Positions 34,668 through 38,982 of a stretch of DNA of 64,000 nucleotides are shown here, piece after piece; the stretch's first letter is position 1; each line of letters begins with the position of its first letter. This stretch comes from Oceanispirochaeta sp. (GTDB lineage: Bacteria; Spirochaetota; Spirochaetia; DSM-2461), in assembly GCA_963666275.2 (NCBI GenBank), contig CAXXOA010000002.1, positions 1,664,001 through 1,728,000 on the forward strand, in the 5' to 3' direction. Position numbers and translations under genes: made by a program. The notes under the pieces were generated by a model that saw only the letters and a list, made by a program, of their open reading frames with translations, did no database searches and was not told where the DNA came from.

Positions 34668-36020
34668 CTACACATTAAGGCTGGATGAACAGGTTTTCAT
34701 AAGCATTTCAAAGGAAATCCGGTTGTCATTGAGGTTTTCCACCTTCAATTCCGCCCCCAGGATCTCGGAGATTTTACGGGAAATGGTCAGTCCCAGACCG
34801 CTCCCTTTGGTCTTCCGGCTGAAATCGGCTTTATACAGGGGATCGAAGATCCTCTCCAGCTGTTCCCGCTCCAGCTGGCCCCGGGGGATCACACGGAAGT
34901 AGCCTGTTTTATCCAGAACGCCCATGCGGATCTCAATGGTCGATCCGGGCAGGGAGAATTCTATGGCATTTTCAATAAGATGGGTAAAGGCCGTTGTTAT
35001 TAGGGAAAAATCGCAGAGGAAGGAGAAGTCCATAAAATCCCATTCCAGCTCTATCTCCTTCTCTCTGGCCGGTTCTGTCAGTGTTATTACAAGGTGTTCC
35101 TTGATGGCTGGGGTCGAGATAAACTGTCTGGTGAGTTTGAAGTTGGAGGATTCCAGTTTGGAGAGCAGGGCAAAATCCCGGATCATCAGTTCCATCCCTG
35201 CCAGTTCGGATAGGATGGTTTCCCATCTTTCCGGGGTCATGGGAAGAATCCCGTCGCGGCAGGCTATGAACTGGGATTTCAGGGCCGTAATGGGTGTTCT
35301 CAGATCGTGGGTGATATTCTTGTACCAGCTGTTCCTCTGGCCCTCCTGCTGAATCATCTTCTTCTGCAGGAGCAGAGCCGCATCATTAATGGCCATCATT
35401 TCCGTTGTGGATGAGGGCGTTATTTCAAAGTTGTTGTATCCCTCGGAGAGATTCATCAGATTGATGGCTATCTCTTTGGCTTCTCCAGCGAAATGTCCTG
35501 CGATTCTGAAAGCAAGCCAGAGGGATACGAAAAAGGAGAAGATCATCCCTCCCAGAGCCATATGGATGATCCGGGAGATAAACTGCCTGTTTTCATCGAA
35601 ATGGCGGAATTCCACGGGGATCAGTATATAGTAACCTATAATCTCATTATTGAAATAATAGGGTGAAGCCGCGCTGTTGTCCGGTTCTGGCGGGGTATAG
35701 TTGTCAAGGCTGGAATTGAGCCAGTGGCAGACAAGGTTTTTATGTTTATCATAGATAAGCAGCTGTGCCATTCCTATAAGGCGCTGCTGAGCCTTTAGAA
35801 TATTTTTCTGGCAGATCTCCTCTGTTAAGTCTGTGGCTTCTCCTTCTGTAATCGAGGAGAACATGACATCCAGAGTTTCCTGGGCCTTCTTTTCAATTTT
35901 ACCGTTCCAGTCTTTCTGGGAACTCTGATAGGCCAGAAAAAAAGAAGAGCCTACGAAAACGAGATTAAGTCCGATAATGAGAAAAAAAGCCGCCAGAATC
36001 CTGGCGCTCATGGATTTCAC
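34668..36020 (-). CDS. Sensor histidine kinase
   Basis: Two TM segments; ITHDLRTPIT H-box, LIENAIEF, GSGLGLTIS. Confidence 0.92.
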   Translation of the reverse strand: MKSMSARILAAFFLIIGLNLVFVGSSFFLAYQSSQKDWNGKIEKKAQETLDVMFSSITEGEATDLTEEICQKNILKAQQRLIGMAQLLIYDKHKNLVCHWLNSSLDNYTPPEPDNSAASPYYFNNEIIGYYILIPVEFRHFDENRQFISRIIHMALGGMIFSFFVSLWLAFRIAGHFAGEAKEIAINLMNLSEGYNNFEITPSSTTEMMAINDAALLLQKKMIQQEGQRNSWYKNITHDLRTPITALKSQFIACRDGILPMTPERWETILSELAGMELMIRDFALLSKLESSNFKLTRQFISTPAIKEHLVITLTEPAREKEIELEWDFMDFSFLCDFSLITTAFTHLIENAIEFSLPGSTIEIRMGVLDKTGYFRVIPRGQLEREQLERIFDPLYKADFSRKTKGSGLGLTISRKISEILGAELKVENLNDNRISFEMLMKTCSSSLNV

Positions 36021-36703
36021 TTACTGTTTCCTGCGAACCTGTATCCGTAACCCCGAACGGTCTCTATCCAGTCCGGATTCTGAAGCTTGGCTCTGAGATT
36101 CTTTATATGAGTATCCACAGTCCGGTCGTACCCTTCAAAAGAGTATTCAAGGCATCTGTCCAGAATCTGTTCCCGGGAAACAACTGCTCCCCCGTTGGAT
36201 GAAAGATAGAGCAGAATCTTCCACTCCGCAGCGGTGAGCTTCAAAGGCTGGTCGTTAAGAAGCGCTTTGTGAGAATCCTCATCGGTTGTCAGAACCTGAC
36301 CGTCCAGCTCCCATCCTGTCATTTTTTTCTGGGGAATCGTCGTCCCTGTCCTTTTAAGAACAGCCCCCACGCGGAGTACAAGTTCCTTGGGAGAGAAGGG
36401 TTTGACAATATAATCGTCCGCTCCGACTTCAAAACCCGTAATCCTGTCAGATTCGGACTCTCTGGCGGTCATAAATATGATGGGAATTTCGGACTTCTGC
36501 CGTATCTCCTTGGCAAAAACGAAACCGTCCCCGTCGGGAAGCATTGCATCCAGGATCAGAAGATCCGGAGTCCTTGCCATAATGGCTTCCTTGACGCCGC
36601 TGAGGACATCAAATTCCTCCACCTCATAATCGGATAATTTCAGGTACCCTGAAACCGCTTCTCTAATGGAGTTATTATCTTCTATTACAAATATCAGTGC
36701 CAT
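36017..36703 (-). CDS. OmpR family response regulator
   Basis: IEDN, LDAMLP, GADDYIVKPFSPKEL, RTVDTHIKNLRAKL. Confidence 0.95.
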   Translation of the reverse strand: MALIFVIEDNNSIREAVSGYLKLSDYEVEEFDVLSGVKEAIMARTPDLLILDAMLPDGDGFVFAKEIRQKSEIPIIFMTARESESDRITGFEVGADDYIVKPFSPKELVLRVGAVLKRTGTTIPQKKMTGWELDGQVLTTDEDSHKALLNDQPLKLTAAEWKILLYLSSNGGAVVSREQILDRCLEYSFEGYDRTVDTHIKNLRAKLQNPDWIETVRGYGYRFAGNSK

Positions 36704-36981: not shown

Positions 36982-37983
36982 ATGAGCAAACAGGTGGCTC
37001 TTACGGGGATAAAGCCTACGGGAATGCCCCATCTCGGAAATTATCTGGGAGCTGTTAAACCGGCCCTTGAGCTGGCGGAAAAATACGAAGCCCGCTACTT
37101 TATAGCAGATTATCATTCACTGAATTCCATAAAAGACCCGGTTGCTCTGAGAGAGTATACCTATGAAATAGCCGCCTGCTGGCTTGCCTGCGGCCTGGAC
37201 CCGGAAAAGGTTCTTATCTACAGGCAGTCTGATGTTCCCGAAACATTTGAACTGACCACCATGATTATGGCTTTTACCCCCAAGGGGCTGATGAACAGGG
37301 CTCATGCCTACAAGGCCCAGCTTGATCAGAACAGGGAGAAGGGGAAACCCGAAGACTATAACATTAATATGGGCCTGTATACCTATCCGGTTCTGATGGC
37401 GGCGGATATCCTTCTTTTCGATACAAATTATGTTCCCGTCGGCAAGGATCAGGTGCAGCATATTGAAATGGCTGTGGATATTGCCCAGGCGGTAAACAGA
37501 AACTATAAAAAGGATCTGCTGACTCTGCCCGAACCGGTTGTTTCCGAATCCACGCAGGTTGTGGTGGGGCTCGACGGAAGAAAGATGAGCAAGAGTTATG
37601 ATAATACAATTCCTCTCTTTGTTCCTGAGAAGAAACTGAAAAAACTCTGCAATAAGATTGTCACAAACTCGCAGAGTGTGGATGAACCGAAGGATCCGGA
37701 AACCTGCAATGTCTTTACCCTTTATAAACTCTTTGCTGCGCCCGAACAGCAGGAGGCTCTGGCTGAGCGGTACCGGGCAGGCGGTATGGGCTGGGGCGAG
37801 GCCAAGGGTGAACTGTTCAATGTGCTGAATGAGCAGATCTCTCCCATGAGAGAAAAATATGAAGAGCTTATGGCTGACAGATCCAGGATCGACCGGATTC
37901 TCCGGGAAGGCTCCGAAAGAGCCCGCGAACTGGCCTCAGAGAAGATCAGGACTCTGAGAAAAGCCATGGGTTTTGATCTCTGA
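36982..37983 (+). CDS. trpS: Tryptophan--tRNA ligase
   Basis: TGIKPTG.PHLGNY (HIGH), YPVLMAADIL, VPVGKDQ, KMSKS. Confidence 0.97.
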   Translation: MSKQVALTGIKPTGMPHLGNYLGAVKPALELAEKYEARYFIADYHSLNSIKDPVALREYTYEIAACWLACGLDPEKVLIYRQSDVPETFELTTMIMAFTPKGLMNRAHAYKAQLDQNREKGKPEDYNINMGLYTYPVLMAADILLFDTNYVPVGKDQVQHIEMAVDIAQAVNRNYKKDLLTLPEPVVSESTQVVVGLDGRKMSKSYDNTIPLFVPEKKLKKLCNKIVTNSQSVDEPKDPETCNVFTLYKLFAAPEQQEALAERYRAGGMGWGEAKGELFNVLNEQISPMREKYEELMADRSRIDRILREGSERARELASEKIRTLRKAMGFDL

Positions 37984-38022
37984 TATTTTTCTTAACAATT
38001 TCTTAACAGATCCGGTTTTTAG

Positions 38023-38051
38023 AGGGAGTCTTCCATAGGCTCCCTTTTTTT
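38023..38051 (+). terminator. Rho-independent terminator of trpS
   Basis: AGGGAGTCT-TCCAT-AGGCTCCCT-TTTTTT. Confidence 0.8.
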
Positions 38052-38059
38052 ATGATTGA

Positions 38060-38074
38060 TGGCACGGTAATTGT
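38060..38074 (+). promoter_or_regulatory. Putative sigma54 (-24/-12) promoter
   Basis: TGGCACGGTAATTGT vs consensus TGGCAC-N5-TTGC; correct spacing, one mismatch at -12. Confidence 0.6.
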
Positions 38075-38100
38075 GATAGTTCCCTCTATAAGGAGGAATT

Positions 38101-38982
38101 ATGCTGGATTATATTACCCATCTTGTCCTGGCCCATCAGCATCATGGAAAATACAGGGATATTCTGCACAGGGAGATTCACTCTCTCATCTATGATTATC
38201 CCCGCAGAAACTACTGCCTGCCTGAAGAGGAGTGGTGTGAGTTTATGCTCTCTCTCCAGACCAGGATCGACTCTCTGATCTCCGGATTTGAATTCAGGGG
38301 GTACTCGTTTGTCGCCTATCTGAACCGGACCCTTTCCTGGCAGGTAAAATCCTACTGGGGTTCCCGGAAGAACAGGCTGAACCGGGAGTGGATTATGGAG
38401 AGAGAGTCTGCCCTTGGCTATGAGGAGATTCAGGAGGAACCCCGGGAACTCTGTTCTCTGAAACAGAAGGTCCTTCAGCTTGTCCTGTTAAAGGGGGATA
38501 CGCCCAATAGAAGACGGGTCCTGAGATTGAGGCTTCTTATCCTTCTTCTTAAAAATATTCAGTTTCTTGAGGAACAGGAATTTCTTGACTGTGCCGCAGA
38601 CTTGCGGTTTGATCCCCGTGAAGCCTCGCTCTGGCGGGTCACACTCCTGAACTGCATTCAGGAGAGGATGGGGCGTCGTAATCTTCTCATCGAGCGGCGC
38701 AACCATCTGTACCATAAAATCACCTACTACCAGAAAAAGAGAATGGAACTGTTCTGCGAATACGAAAGAGCTCTTCTGGACGAGAGGATTGCCCGGTTCC
38801 GGAAAAGGCACGGCCGGATCAATGAGGAGCTAAGCCGGGTCTGTCTTGTCCCTTCCAACAGGGAAATCAGTTCTCTTCTGAATATTCCCAAAGGATCTGT
38901 GGATTCAGGGCTTTTCTACCTGAAGGAAATGATGATGCAGATAAGCCGGGACGCTGAAGAGCCTGCAGATCTTTCCGGATAA
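38101..38982 (+). CDS. Hypothetical sigma70-family-like protein (region 2-like N-terminus, coiled coil, region 4-like HTH)
   Basis: FEFRGYSFVAYLNRTLSW resembles region 2.3-2.4; PSNREISSLLNIPKGSVDSGL resembles region 4.2; AAGGAGG SD. Confidence 0.6.
   Translation: MLDYITHLVLAHQHHGKYRDILHREIHSLIYDYPRRNYCLPEEEWCEFMLSLQTRIDSLISGFEFRGYSFVAYLNRTLSWQVKSYWGSRKNRLNREWIMERESALGYEEIQEEPRELCSLKQKVLQLVLLKGDTPNRRRVLRLRLLILLLKNIQFLEEQEFLDCAADLRFDPREASLWRVTLLNCIQERMGRRNLLIERRNHLYHKITYYQKKRMELFCEYERALLDERIARFRKRHGRINEELSRVCLVPSNREISSLLNIPKGSVDSGLFYLKEMMMQISRDAEEPADLSG

What the first reader, a model, noticed from the sequence alone, without database searches (positions are those of the whole stretch)
38060..38982. 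Sigma54-type promoter driving an atypical sigma-factor-like protein: candidate RpoN-to-alternative-sigma cascade
Seen: the trpS terminator isolates this gene, which is preceded by TGGCACGGTAATTGT (-24/-12 spacing correct, GC to GT at -12) and a strong SD. The 293-aa product has a region-2-like segment (...FEFRGYSFVAYLNRTLSWQVKSY) and a region-4-like HTH (SNREISSLLNIPKGSVDSGL), separated by roughly 150 aa including a long basic coiled coil, unlike ordinary ECF or group-3 sigmas. No anti-sigma gene is adjacent. Established: Borrelia rpoS is transcribed from a sigma54 promoter. Inference: an analogous cascade using a poorly described sigma family.
Basis: partly seen in the sequence, partly recalled or inferred. 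Interest (0 to 1): 0.72.

Follow-up and report, generated by a model that had tools for sequence, protein, structure and literature searches.

The report
Spirochete sigma factor under RpoN control
This gene belongs to a widespread, mostly unannotated spirochete family of probable RNA-polymerase sigma factors that carry a long coiled coil inside their DNA-reading domain and sit behind a conserved RpoN-type promoter, which suggests that the sigma cascade known from the Lyme disease bacterium is one branch of an older and wider spirochete circuit.

Summary
The ORF (38101-38982, 293 aa) has no Pfam or NCBIfam hit itself, but it belongs to a mostly single-copy spirochete family (53 of 62 same-class genomes) that includes L. 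interrogans LIC_10225, an 'unclassified ECF'. The model and family profile give a sigma2 domain and a sigma4. The linker is short, and the ~95-aa insert with the coiled coil lies inside sigma4, between 4.1 and the HTH (coevolution). A -24/-12 motif lies upstream of 39 of 56 dereplicated Spirochaetia orthologs, against 5 of 361 neighbouring ORFs. It was found in 0 of 13 loci from other classes. The genome has rpoN, 17 full enhancer-binding ATPase domains and an Rrp2-like ortholog. Two RpoS-like sigma genes carry the same motif (29 of 30 and 30 of 30), so RpoN appears to head a three-sigma tier. Nothing was shown experimentally: no TSS and no targets, and the predicted RNAP binding is weak support only. 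The recognition helix has lost basic residues, so an RNAP-binding modulator remains a rival. Verdict: new variant of a known kind.

The parts
36982..37983 (+). trpS, upstream neighbour in this lineage (most orthologs have an nrnA/DHH gene here instead)
   Evidence: Pfam tRNA-synt_1b; synteny
37990..38008 (.). 11-bp-period direct repeat TCTTAACA-N3-TCTTAACA, starting about 68 nt upstream of the -24 element; candidate site for an unknown regulator
   Evidence: Sequence; shared by L002 and L004; exact TTAACA-N5-TTAACA occurs twice in the whole genome. Function inferred.
38021..38054 (+). intrinsic-terminator-like hairpin and U-tract closing trpS
   Evidence: GC hairpins with T tails at the same place in L002-L004
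38060..38074 (+). sigma54 (-24/-12) promoter motif, GT variant at -12; predicted +1 near 38086
   Evidence: conserved in 39 of 56 orthologs against 5 of 361 neighbours; the GT variant also occurs before L004 and before the RpoS-like gene of two same-genus genomes (L189, L190)
38090..38096 (+). Shine-Dalgarno AAGGAGG
38101..38385 (+). sigma2 domain (aa 1-95)
   Evidence: VIA-align to SigC region 2 (Z 9.5, rmsd 2.3, 84 aligned) and to sigmaE (Z 10.0, rmsd 2.5, 88 aligned); Pfam r2 weak hits in 8 of 147 members
38386..38502 (+). variable sigma2-sigma4 linker (aa 96-134)
   Evidence: lowest conservation and pLDDT of the internal regions
38503..38556 (+). sigma4.1 helix (aa 135-152; conserved R144, L148, L150, K151)
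   Evidence: coevolving pairs I147-I262, K151-N253 and L146-L260 with the C-terminal HTH; split-sigma4 profile test
38557..38847 (+). ~95-aa insert inside sigma4: two short helices and an antiparallel basic coiled-coil hairpin (about aa 187-246; conserved R192, R200, N201)
   Evidence: AF2 helices 158-167, 172-216 and 220-246; pairs I207-I230 and L203-I240; conservation
38848..38952 (+). sigma4.2 helix-turn-helix (aa 250-284; P-T/S-H/N..IA..L.IPKG(S/T)VDSGL)
   Evidence: Pfam Sigma70_r4_2 in 49 of 147 members at E<=0.1, below the cut-off in the members viewed; weak PDB hits to ECF sigma4
38101..38982 (+). gene for the putative sigma70-family factor, 293 aa
38992..39627 (+). rdgB/HAM1 ITP/XTP pyrophosphatase, conserved downstream neighbour, probably co-transcribed (inferred)
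   Evidence: Pfam Ham1p_like; downstream in 43 of 55 testable ortholog loci

Best explanation
The gene encodes an ECF-related sigma70-family factor (sigma2, short linker, sigma4) of an old spirochete lineage whose sigma4 is split by a ~95-aa insert ending in a basic coiled-coil hairpin. In class Spirochaetia it is the first gene of a unit (usually with rdgB) that is transcribed from a -24/-12 promoter by RpoN holoenzyme. The activator is most likely the conserved Rrp2-like enhancer-binding protein. Once made, the protein binds core RNA polymerase through sigma2 and redirects it to its own, still unknown, promoters. Control at the level of synthesis would replace an anti-sigma, as with HrpL. 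Together with two RpoS-like sigma genes that carry the same motif, it forms a second tier of sigma factors under RpoN. Shown by computation: ORF, family, fold of sigma2 and the HTH, motif conservation, presence of rpoN and activators. Inferred: RpoN dependence, identity of the activator, core binding, promoter-specific transcription, role of the insert.
For: TIGR02937 (sigma70 family) hits 115 of 147 family members at E<=0.1, best 1.6e-11. The model has pLDDT 94. The top of 48,161 chains is RNAP-bound SigB (Z 10.3, rmsd 4.1, 156 aligned over residues 2-284), and sigmaE, sigma32 and sigmaS in initiation complexes align end to end (166-179 residues, rmsd 4.5-6.0). The family profile aligns over 258 columns to LIC_10225 (probability 98.6, E 8.5e-16; accession match). 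The motif (8 or more of 10 positions, GG and G fixed, -25 to -100) is present in 39 of 56 dereplicated orthologs, against 5 of 361 neighbouring ORFs, 56 of 3957 ORFs of this genome and 1.0% of shuffles. It does not depend on rdgB: 31 of 43 loci with rdgB and 8 of 12 without. The same consensus finds the site before the RpoS-like gene in 2 of 2 small f5 genomes tested. rpoN is in this genome and in 79 of 80 others. One activator of this genome is the best match (56-64%) of an activator in each of 5 genomes tested. Predicted beta-prime (327-aa N-terminal domain) complex: score 0.59 against a best control of 0.02, rated weak support. The mark was reached by 116 of 157 solved complexes and 2 of 215 mismatches, but at 0.60 or under by only 18 of the solved ones and by both mismatches; the runs agree in at least 69% of contacts and partner pLDDT is at least 71. 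This is a textbook pair that can pass from memory.
Against: The query itself hits no Pfam or NCBIfam model, and Foldseek found nothing at E<=0.001. Z 9-10 is within the range of unrelated helical hairpins. The recognition helix reads KG(S/T)VDSGL(F/Y)Y, where ECFs usually have basic DNA-contacting residues (recalled), and it differs between lineages. The site here has GT, not GC, at -12. 17 of 56 orthologs lack the motif under the rule, six T. denticola-like loci have TTGCAC and one has TAGCAC in place of TGGCAC, and 0 of 13 loci from other classes carry it. The motif threshold was set after upstream sequences had been seen, start codons were picked by heuristic, and kin are not independent. 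The lic10225 transposon mutant is viable, with median fitness 1.22 and 0.87 in the two of three tissue rows seen (PMC5100919 supplement).
Confidence: 0.66

Rival explanations
1. The promoter is RpoN-dependent, but the protein is a sigma-derived modulator and not a promoter-selecting sigma. It binds core through sigma2 and competes with other sigmas, or needs a partner docked on the coiled coil to reach DNA (as T4 gp55 does).
For: The recognition helix has D268 (99%), G270 (72%) and Y273 (76%) in the 147-member alignment. T4 gp55 is among the top structural matches (7d7d_F, Z 9.6, rmsd 6.1, 127 aligned). Weak couplings link sigma2 and the hairpin (Y73-R200, Y31-R200, Y73-L196; z 4.1-4.7). The Treponema HTHs are much diverged.
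Against: The HTH is the most conserved part of the family, as expected if it reads a fixed sequence. The Leptospira member has an ordinary ECF-type sigma2 (FRTWFYSVLRN) and is named a sigma70-family factor in most records listed.
Confidence: 0.2
2. The protein is a working sigma factor, but this particular site (GT at -12) is weak or decayed, and the gene here is expressed by read-through or from another promoter.
For: GT at -12. About 30% of orthologs have lost the motif although their genomes keep rpoN and, in seven genomes checked, the motif before an RpoS-like gene. Orthologs from other classes lack it.
Against: The closest orthologs keep it at the same offset (L002 10 of 10, L003 9 of 10, L004 8 of 10 with GT). 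Two same-genus genomes have GT before their RpoS-like gene. A strong hairpin lies just upstream. No sigma70-type site was found.
Confidence: 0.09
3. The motif is kept for rdgB or for another DNA-binding protein and has nothing to do with this gene's expression by RpoN.
For: rdgB follows in 43 of 55 loci. A second conserved element (a direct repeat) shows that other regulators act here.
Against: The motif is present in 8 of 12 loci without rdgB. The per-position profile is that of a sigma54 promoter, with a free 5-nt spacer.
Confidence: 0.05

Closest known systems
Borrelia Rrp2-RpoN-RpoS cascade (PMC1976401 abstract; PMC3037356 passages)
   Same: RpoN -24/-12 promoter in front of an alternative sigma gene in a spirochete; an Rrp2-like activator is present in this genome; short upstream region, as Rrp2 is reported to act without an enhancer.
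   Different: The product is not RpoS: the genome has separate RpoS-like genes, and the family's sub-profiles score at most about 2 bits on them. The family was not found in 7 of 7 small f5 genomes, inferred from size and gene order to be Borrelia-like.
HrpL of Pseudomonas syringae and Erwinia (PMC3105312 passages)
   Same: An ECF sigma whose gene is transcribed from a sigma54 promoter; control through synthesis.
   Different: HrpL is a compact ECF tied to a secretion gene cluster (size recalled). This family sits among housekeeping genes (nrnA, rdgB), is about 290-340 aa with an insert in sigma4, and spans a phylum.
L. interrogans LIC_10225 (AAS68853; PMC12655853 Table 2, PMC6941012 Table 2)
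   Same: Full-length homolog, 301 aa, with the same insert and terminal HTH; single copy in most Leptospira genomes searched (61 of 61 have a match).
   Different: Listed as an 'unclassified' ECF with no function. No -24/-12 motif in 6 Leptospira loci tested, and a different neighbourhood (divergent M23 peptidase). Its kinship to the unannotated Spirochaetia proteins was not found in print.
Group 4 (ECF) sigma factors, including those with fused regulatory extensions such as ECF41 and ECF42 (PMC7826278, PMC7671368 passages)
   Same: Only sigma2 and sigma4 are recognisable; the best profile matches among this genome's ten sigmas are ECFs; no adjacent anti-sigma, with a fused extra part.
   Different: The extra part is an internal insert between regions 4.1 and 4.2, not a terminal extension; the family was left out of the ECF reclassification (stated for LIC_10225 in PMC12655853).

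Membership tests
sigma70 family | sigma2 domain fold | tested here: met
   Residues 1-95 align to SigC r2 (Z 9.5, rmsd 2.3, 84 aligned), sigmaE (Z 10.0, rmsd 2.5, 88 aligned) and SigK (Z 9.1, rmsd 3.1, 85 aligned); TIGR02937 in 115 of 147 members at E<=0.1.
sigma70 family | sigma4 with region 4.1 helices and the 4.2 HTH | tested here: met
   Pfam r4_2 weak hits in 49 of 147 members; 4.1-to-HTH couplings; the profile with the insert removed scores 16.1 and 15.8 bits on 2 of 5 ECFs, against 11.8 and 12.7 for the HTH alone and -0.8 and 2.7 for 4.1 plus the insert's helices. Met only as a split domain.
sigma70 family | binds core RNAP through sigma2 and the beta-prime coiled coil | tested here: inconclusive
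   Predicted complex 0.59 against control 0.02, weak support, textbook pair.
sigma70 family | directs promoter-specific initiation | not testable with these tools
   Needs in vitro transcription or ChIP-seq.
group 4 (ECF) sigma | only sigma2 and sigma4, no sigma1.1 or sigma3 | tested here: inconclusive
   sigma2 starts at residue 1. The six Pfam r3 hits all map to the C-terminal HTH, not the middle. The fold search of residues 111-187 used a weak model (pLDDT 60) and gave nothing clear.
group 4 (ECF) sigma | compact (~20 kDa) core with a contiguous sigma4 | tested here: not met
   293 aa with a ~95-aa insert inside sigma4; size norm from PMC4598750.
group 4 (ECF) sigma | cognate anti-sigma encoded next to it (common, not universal) | tested here: not met
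   Adjacent genes are rdgB (43 of 55) and a DHH gene (35 of 53). 110 of 128 called neighbours were scanned against NCBIfam at E<=1e-10 and none was named an anti-sigma, though many had no hit. An unlinked anti-sigma was not looked for.
group 3 sigma (FliA, SigB) | sigma3 domain between sigma2 and sigma4 | tested here: inconclusive
   The top structural match is SigB, but no r3 hit lies in the middle region and sub-profiles favour ECFs over FliA.
Borrelia-type RpoS | group 2 architecture and sequence similarity to RpoS | tested here: not met
   Separate RpoS-like genes exist in this genome; family sub-profiles score at most about 2 bits on them.
sigma54-dependent promoter | GG-N10-GC spacing in a TGGCAC-N5-TTGC context | tested here: met
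   9 of 10 consensus positions, GT at -12; 38 of 39 ortholog sites have GC. Consensus recalled.
sigma54-dependent promoter | host encodes RpoN and an enhancer-binding protein | tested here: met
   rpoN; 17 full-length Sigma54_activat matches; Rrp2-like ortholog at G000:C1:2050627-2052006.
sigma54-dependent promoter | TSS about 12 nt downstream and RpoN/activator dependence | not testable with these tools
   No RNA run was listed for this stretch.

The most novel reading that the evidence does not exclude
RpoN and one conserved Rrp2-like activator head an ancestral three-sigma tier across class Spirochaetia: two RpoS-like factors plus this fifth-architecture sigma70 protein, whose coiled-coil insert in sigma4 is a built-in regulatory or partner-docking arm that replaces an anti-sigma. 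Borrelia's RpoN-RpoS pathway would be the one branch kept after genome reduction, and a helically phased direct repeat would mark a dedicated co-regulator of this gene.
Probability: 0.45. Interest if true: 0.85.

Novelty: new variant of a known kind. Interest (0 to 1): 0.72.

Why it matters
RpoN was found in 79 of 80 spirochete genomes tested, yet the papers read name few targets outside Borrelia rpoS. If the reading holds, it supplies a conserved, testable core regulon for RpoN in Treponema and free-living spirochetes, places the Borrelia cascade in an evolutionary frame, and adds a sigma70 architecture (split sigma4 with a coiled-coil arm) that standard ECF screens miss. It also corrects annotation: the T. 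denticola ortholog AAS12791.1 is named 'nucleoside-triphosphatase', apparently after its rdgB neighbour, and the Spirochaetia members listed are otherwise mostly 'hypothetical'.

Tried and rejected
Single-sequence Pfam and NCBIfam scans: no hit. PDB sequence searches with both profiles: nothing better than E 0.025. Foldseek: no match at E<=0.001. A sigma3 domain in the middle: my first reading, dropped because the r3 hits map to the terminal HTH; the 77-residue single-sequence model was too weak to decide. Origin of the insert by duplication of the HTH: hhalign probability 1.8, not supported. Motif presence against rpoN presence: no contrast, since rpoN is in 79 of 80 genomes. TDE0070 as the T. 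denticola ortholog (recalled guess): not supported; the ortholog is AAS12791.1, and its TDE number was not established. Hbb as the binder of the direct repeat: the paper read gave no consensus. The BosR repeat TAAATTAAAT does not match it. A known GT-at-minus-12 precedent (glnHp2, recalled) was not confirmed in the passages read. RNA evidence: no RNA holder listed. Earlier scan notes: nothing in four look-ups. Members outside spirochetes were not searched; the Atlas lists look-alike clusters in Candidatus Binatota as a lead only. Matches at E 1e-4 to 1e-10 in distant families may be ordinary ECFs and were not checked. No target promoters could be inferred.

Full report
Observation. The motif on its own is modest: one match in the window against 0.15 expected, and 14 of 100 shuffles had one.

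The family. The protein hits no Pfam or NCBIfam model. A word-indexed search gave 15 homologs. Their profile matched 1438 representatives of 50%-identity clusters at E<=0.001 and 967 at 1e-10. A 147-sequence alignment found a match in 221 of 301 phylum genomes, mostly as a single copy: 53 of 62 in the window's class, 61 of 61 in family f19 and 34 of 34 in f24. Identity look-up named f19 members as Leptospira and an f24 member as Brachyspira. It was not found in 7 of 7 genomes of f5 (1.0-1.8 Mb), in the 1.1-Mb genome G088 or in G190. In G088, G140 and G190 no such gene lies next to rdgB. I infer from size and gene order that f5 is Borrelia-like and G088 T. pallidum-like. Weak matches in distant families were not checked and may be ordinary ECFs. 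The Leptospira cluster contains AAS68853.1, which PMC6941012 Table 2 gives as LIC_10225. PMC12655853 lists it as an 'unclassified' ECF of 301 aa that was left out of the reclassification. It aligns to the family over 258 columns (probability 98.6). The T. denticola ortholog AAS12791.1 is named 'nucleoside-triphosphatase' or 'hypothetical', and rdgB starts at its 3' end. In Spirochaetia the gene order is usually DHH/nrnA, this gene, rdgB: rdgB in 43 of 55 and DHH in 35 of 53 testable loci.

Protein anatomy. 115 of 147 members hit TIGR02937 at E<=0.1; 49 hit Pfam r4_2 and 8 hit r2, weakly. The AF2 model has pLDDT 94 and pTM 0.76. Foldseek gave nothing at E<=0.001, although sigma factors fill the upper ranks. 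VIA-align ranked RNAP-bound SigB first of 48,161 chains (Z 10.3, rmsd 4.1, 156 aligned) and matched residues 1-87 to SigC region 2 (Z 9.5, rmsd 2.3), but unrelated hairpins reach Z 9.9. SigmaE, sigma32 and sigmaS from initiation complexes align from end to end. I first took the middle for sigma3, but all six r3 hits lie on the terminal HTH. Mean-field coupling on 353 sequences (effective 244, shallow for 293 columns, so only the top pairs count) gave I207-I230, I147-I262, I26-I56, L203-I240 and K151-N253 as the five best pairs, with L146-L260 twelfth. These put helix 135-152 against the terminal HTH, as region 4.1 packs on 4.2 (sigma4 layout: PMC4598750; residue-level contacts recalled). A profile with the insert cut out aligned across the junction to 2 of the genome's 5 ECFs at 16.1 and 15.8 bits, 3-4 bits above the HTH alone; region 4.1 with the insert's own helices scored 2.7 at best. 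So the layout is sigma2, a ~40-aa linker, and a sigma4 split by about 95 aa that include a basic hairpin. The gain is modest, so the split is likely and not proven. A predicted complex of residues 1-190 with this genome's beta-prime N-terminal domain scored 0.59 against a best control of 0.02, which is weak support. The mark was reached by 116 of 157 solved complexes and 2 of 215 mismatches, but at 0.60 or under by only 18 solved ones and both mismatches; contact agreement was at least 69% and partner pLDDT at least 71. It is a textbook pair and may pass from memory. Against a plain sigma: the recognition helix carries D268, G270 and Y273 where ECFs usually have basic residues (comparison recalled), and it varies by lineage.

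Promoter. I scored the recalled consensus TGGCAC-N5-TTGC (8 or more of 10, GG and G fixed, 25-100 nt before the start). It is present in 54 of 83 Spirochaetia loci with enough upstream DNA, the window's own included, and in 39 of 56 after dereplication (28 of 56 at 9 or more). Controls: 5 of 361 neighbouring ORFs, 56 of 3957 ORFs of this genome (41 of 2161 with free upstream DNA) and 1.0% of shuffles. It was found in 0 of 13 loci from other classes. Three loci were dropped for lack of a start or of upstream DNA. The threshold was set after I had seen upstream sequences, starts were picked by heuristic, and the loci came from a pattern scan, top hits and chosen regions. The motif follows this gene and not rdgB (31 of 43 with rdgB, 8 of 12 without). 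Seventeen of 56 lack it. Six T. denticola-like loci have TTGCAC and one has TAGCAC, while a close relative (L074) keeps TGGCAC. This genome has rpoN and 17 full activator domains; 79 of 80 other genomes have rpoN. One activator (G000:C1:2050627-2052006) is the best match, at 56-64%, of an activator in each of five genomes, including the only one of G140 and of G120. I take it as the Rrp2 ortholog and the likeliest activator. This is inferred; Borrelia Rrp2 acts on rpoS without an enhancer (PMC1976401 abstract), which suits the short intergenic region.

A wider tier. Of the ten sigma70-family genes over the cut-off in this genome, eight were checked and two RpoS-like genes carry the motif. Their orthologs carry it in 29 of 30 and 30 of 30 top-scoring loci, own genome included (window 0 to -130). 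A further 15 of 16 loci of the second gene and 3 of 4 of the first carry it (window 0 to -160), among them both f5 genomes tested and G088. The f5 sites serve as the positive control, since Borrelia rpoS has a proven sigma54 promoter. Seven genomes whose family gene lacks the motif keep it before the second RpoS-like gene, so loss is gene-specific. Two same-genus genomes have GT at -12 there, which makes the GT variant in the window less worrying.

A second element. TGTAA(A/C)-N4-TGTAA(A/C) with up to one mismatch lies upstream of 17 of 55 family genes, against 13 of 3566 other windows and 0 of 30 and 2 of 30 RpoS-like promoters (pattern derived from the same sequences). With the stricter TGTAAA pattern it starts 31-33, 42-43, 52-54 or 80-81 nt before the -24 element; the first three sets are one helical turn apart. 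The window and its closest relatives have an 11-bp-period TTAACA repeat instead. The binder is unknown.

Mechanism and rivals. Best reading (0.66): an RpoN-controlled alternative sigma, regulated by synthesis and with no linked anti-sigma. Rivals: an RNAP-binding modulator or partner-dependent sigma (0.20), a decayed site in this copy (0.09), or a motif kept for another reason (0.05). The only functional datum found is a viable lic10225 transposon mutant with near-neutral fitness in the two of three tissue rows seen (PMC5100919).

What is known. RpoN-to-sigma cascades are known: Borrelia RpoS and HrpL, an ECF under a sigma54 promoter (PMC3105312). I found no paper that describes this family, its split sigma4, its promoter, or RpoN promoters at RpoS-like genes of other spirochetes (searches; open-access library only, most subscription papers are missing). 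What I saw of each paper: PMC12655853, parts 1-3 of 5; PMC5100919, passages and supplement rows; PMC1976401, abstract and outline; PMC6941012, PMC2965109, PMC3914990, PMC2811001, PMC3037356, PMC4758666, PMC7826278, PMC7671368, PMC3105312, PMC4598750 and PMC1865078, passages only. The supplementary sigma tables of PMC4758666 and PMC7826278 were not opened and may list members.

Verdict. It works like HrpL or Borrelia RpoS in its control, is probably a sigma70-family member, and is not a standard ECF, group 3 or RpoS protein. New variant of a known kind; interest 0.72.

Noticed in passing
G000:C1:1419315-1420154 (L142/L158) and G000:C1:1840138-1840989 (L140/L188): Two RpoS-like sigma genes of this genome, one just upstream of a tsaD/gcp-like gene (name recalled from the sequence), have -24/-12 motifs that are conserved in 29 of 30 and 30 of 30 orthologs. 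That the second is the ortholog of TDE0937/TP1012 is recalled and not tested.
   Followed up: partly
L158-L217, about 30-55 nt upstream of the -24 element: An AT-rich near-palindrome (TAAWT-N15-AWTTA-like) precedes both RpoS-like genes: 28 of 30 and 25 of 30, against 31% and 23% in shuffles and 18 of 55 in the family (pattern post hoc). Candidate site for a DNA-bending protein such as Hbb/IHF; not tested.
   Followed up: partly
window 37990-38008; L007, L009, L012, L014, L018-L020, L023, L025, L038, L039, L055, L058: Direct repeat upstream of the promoter, helically phased in most loci: TTAACA at 11-bp period here, TGTAAA at 10-bp period elsewhere. It resembles OmpR-family boxes (recalled).
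   Followed up: partly
L069-L075, L099, L221, L222: In T. denticola-like genomes the -24 GG has decayed before this gene (TTGCAC, TAGCAC) and, in one of two genomes, before the RpoS-like gene (TAGCAT). This suggests ongoing loss or changed RpoN specificity in that genus.
   Followed up: no
G000, 17 sites listed: Genome-wide candidates for RpoN promoters at 9 or more of 10 include, by their N-termini (names inferred), several solute-binding or ABC transporter genes, a small heat-shock-like gene (C1:903536) and a Dps-like gene (C3:103655).
   Followed up: no
window 34668-36703 (-): An OmpR-type response regulator and histidine kinase pair lies divergent from trpS, about 1.4 kb from the direct repeat; no link was tested.
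   Followed up: no
L142:185-970: A transposase-like ORF lies just upstream of one RpoS-like gene in this genome (identity inferred from the sequence).
   Followed up: no
L092:1438-2421: In one genome of another class the family gene follows a flagellin gene.
   Followed up: no
ESM Atlas rows 2-3 for P0231: Look-alike clusters of 295 and 342 aa, commonest in Candidatus Binatota, hint at the same architecture outside spirochetes (lead only).
   Followed up: no
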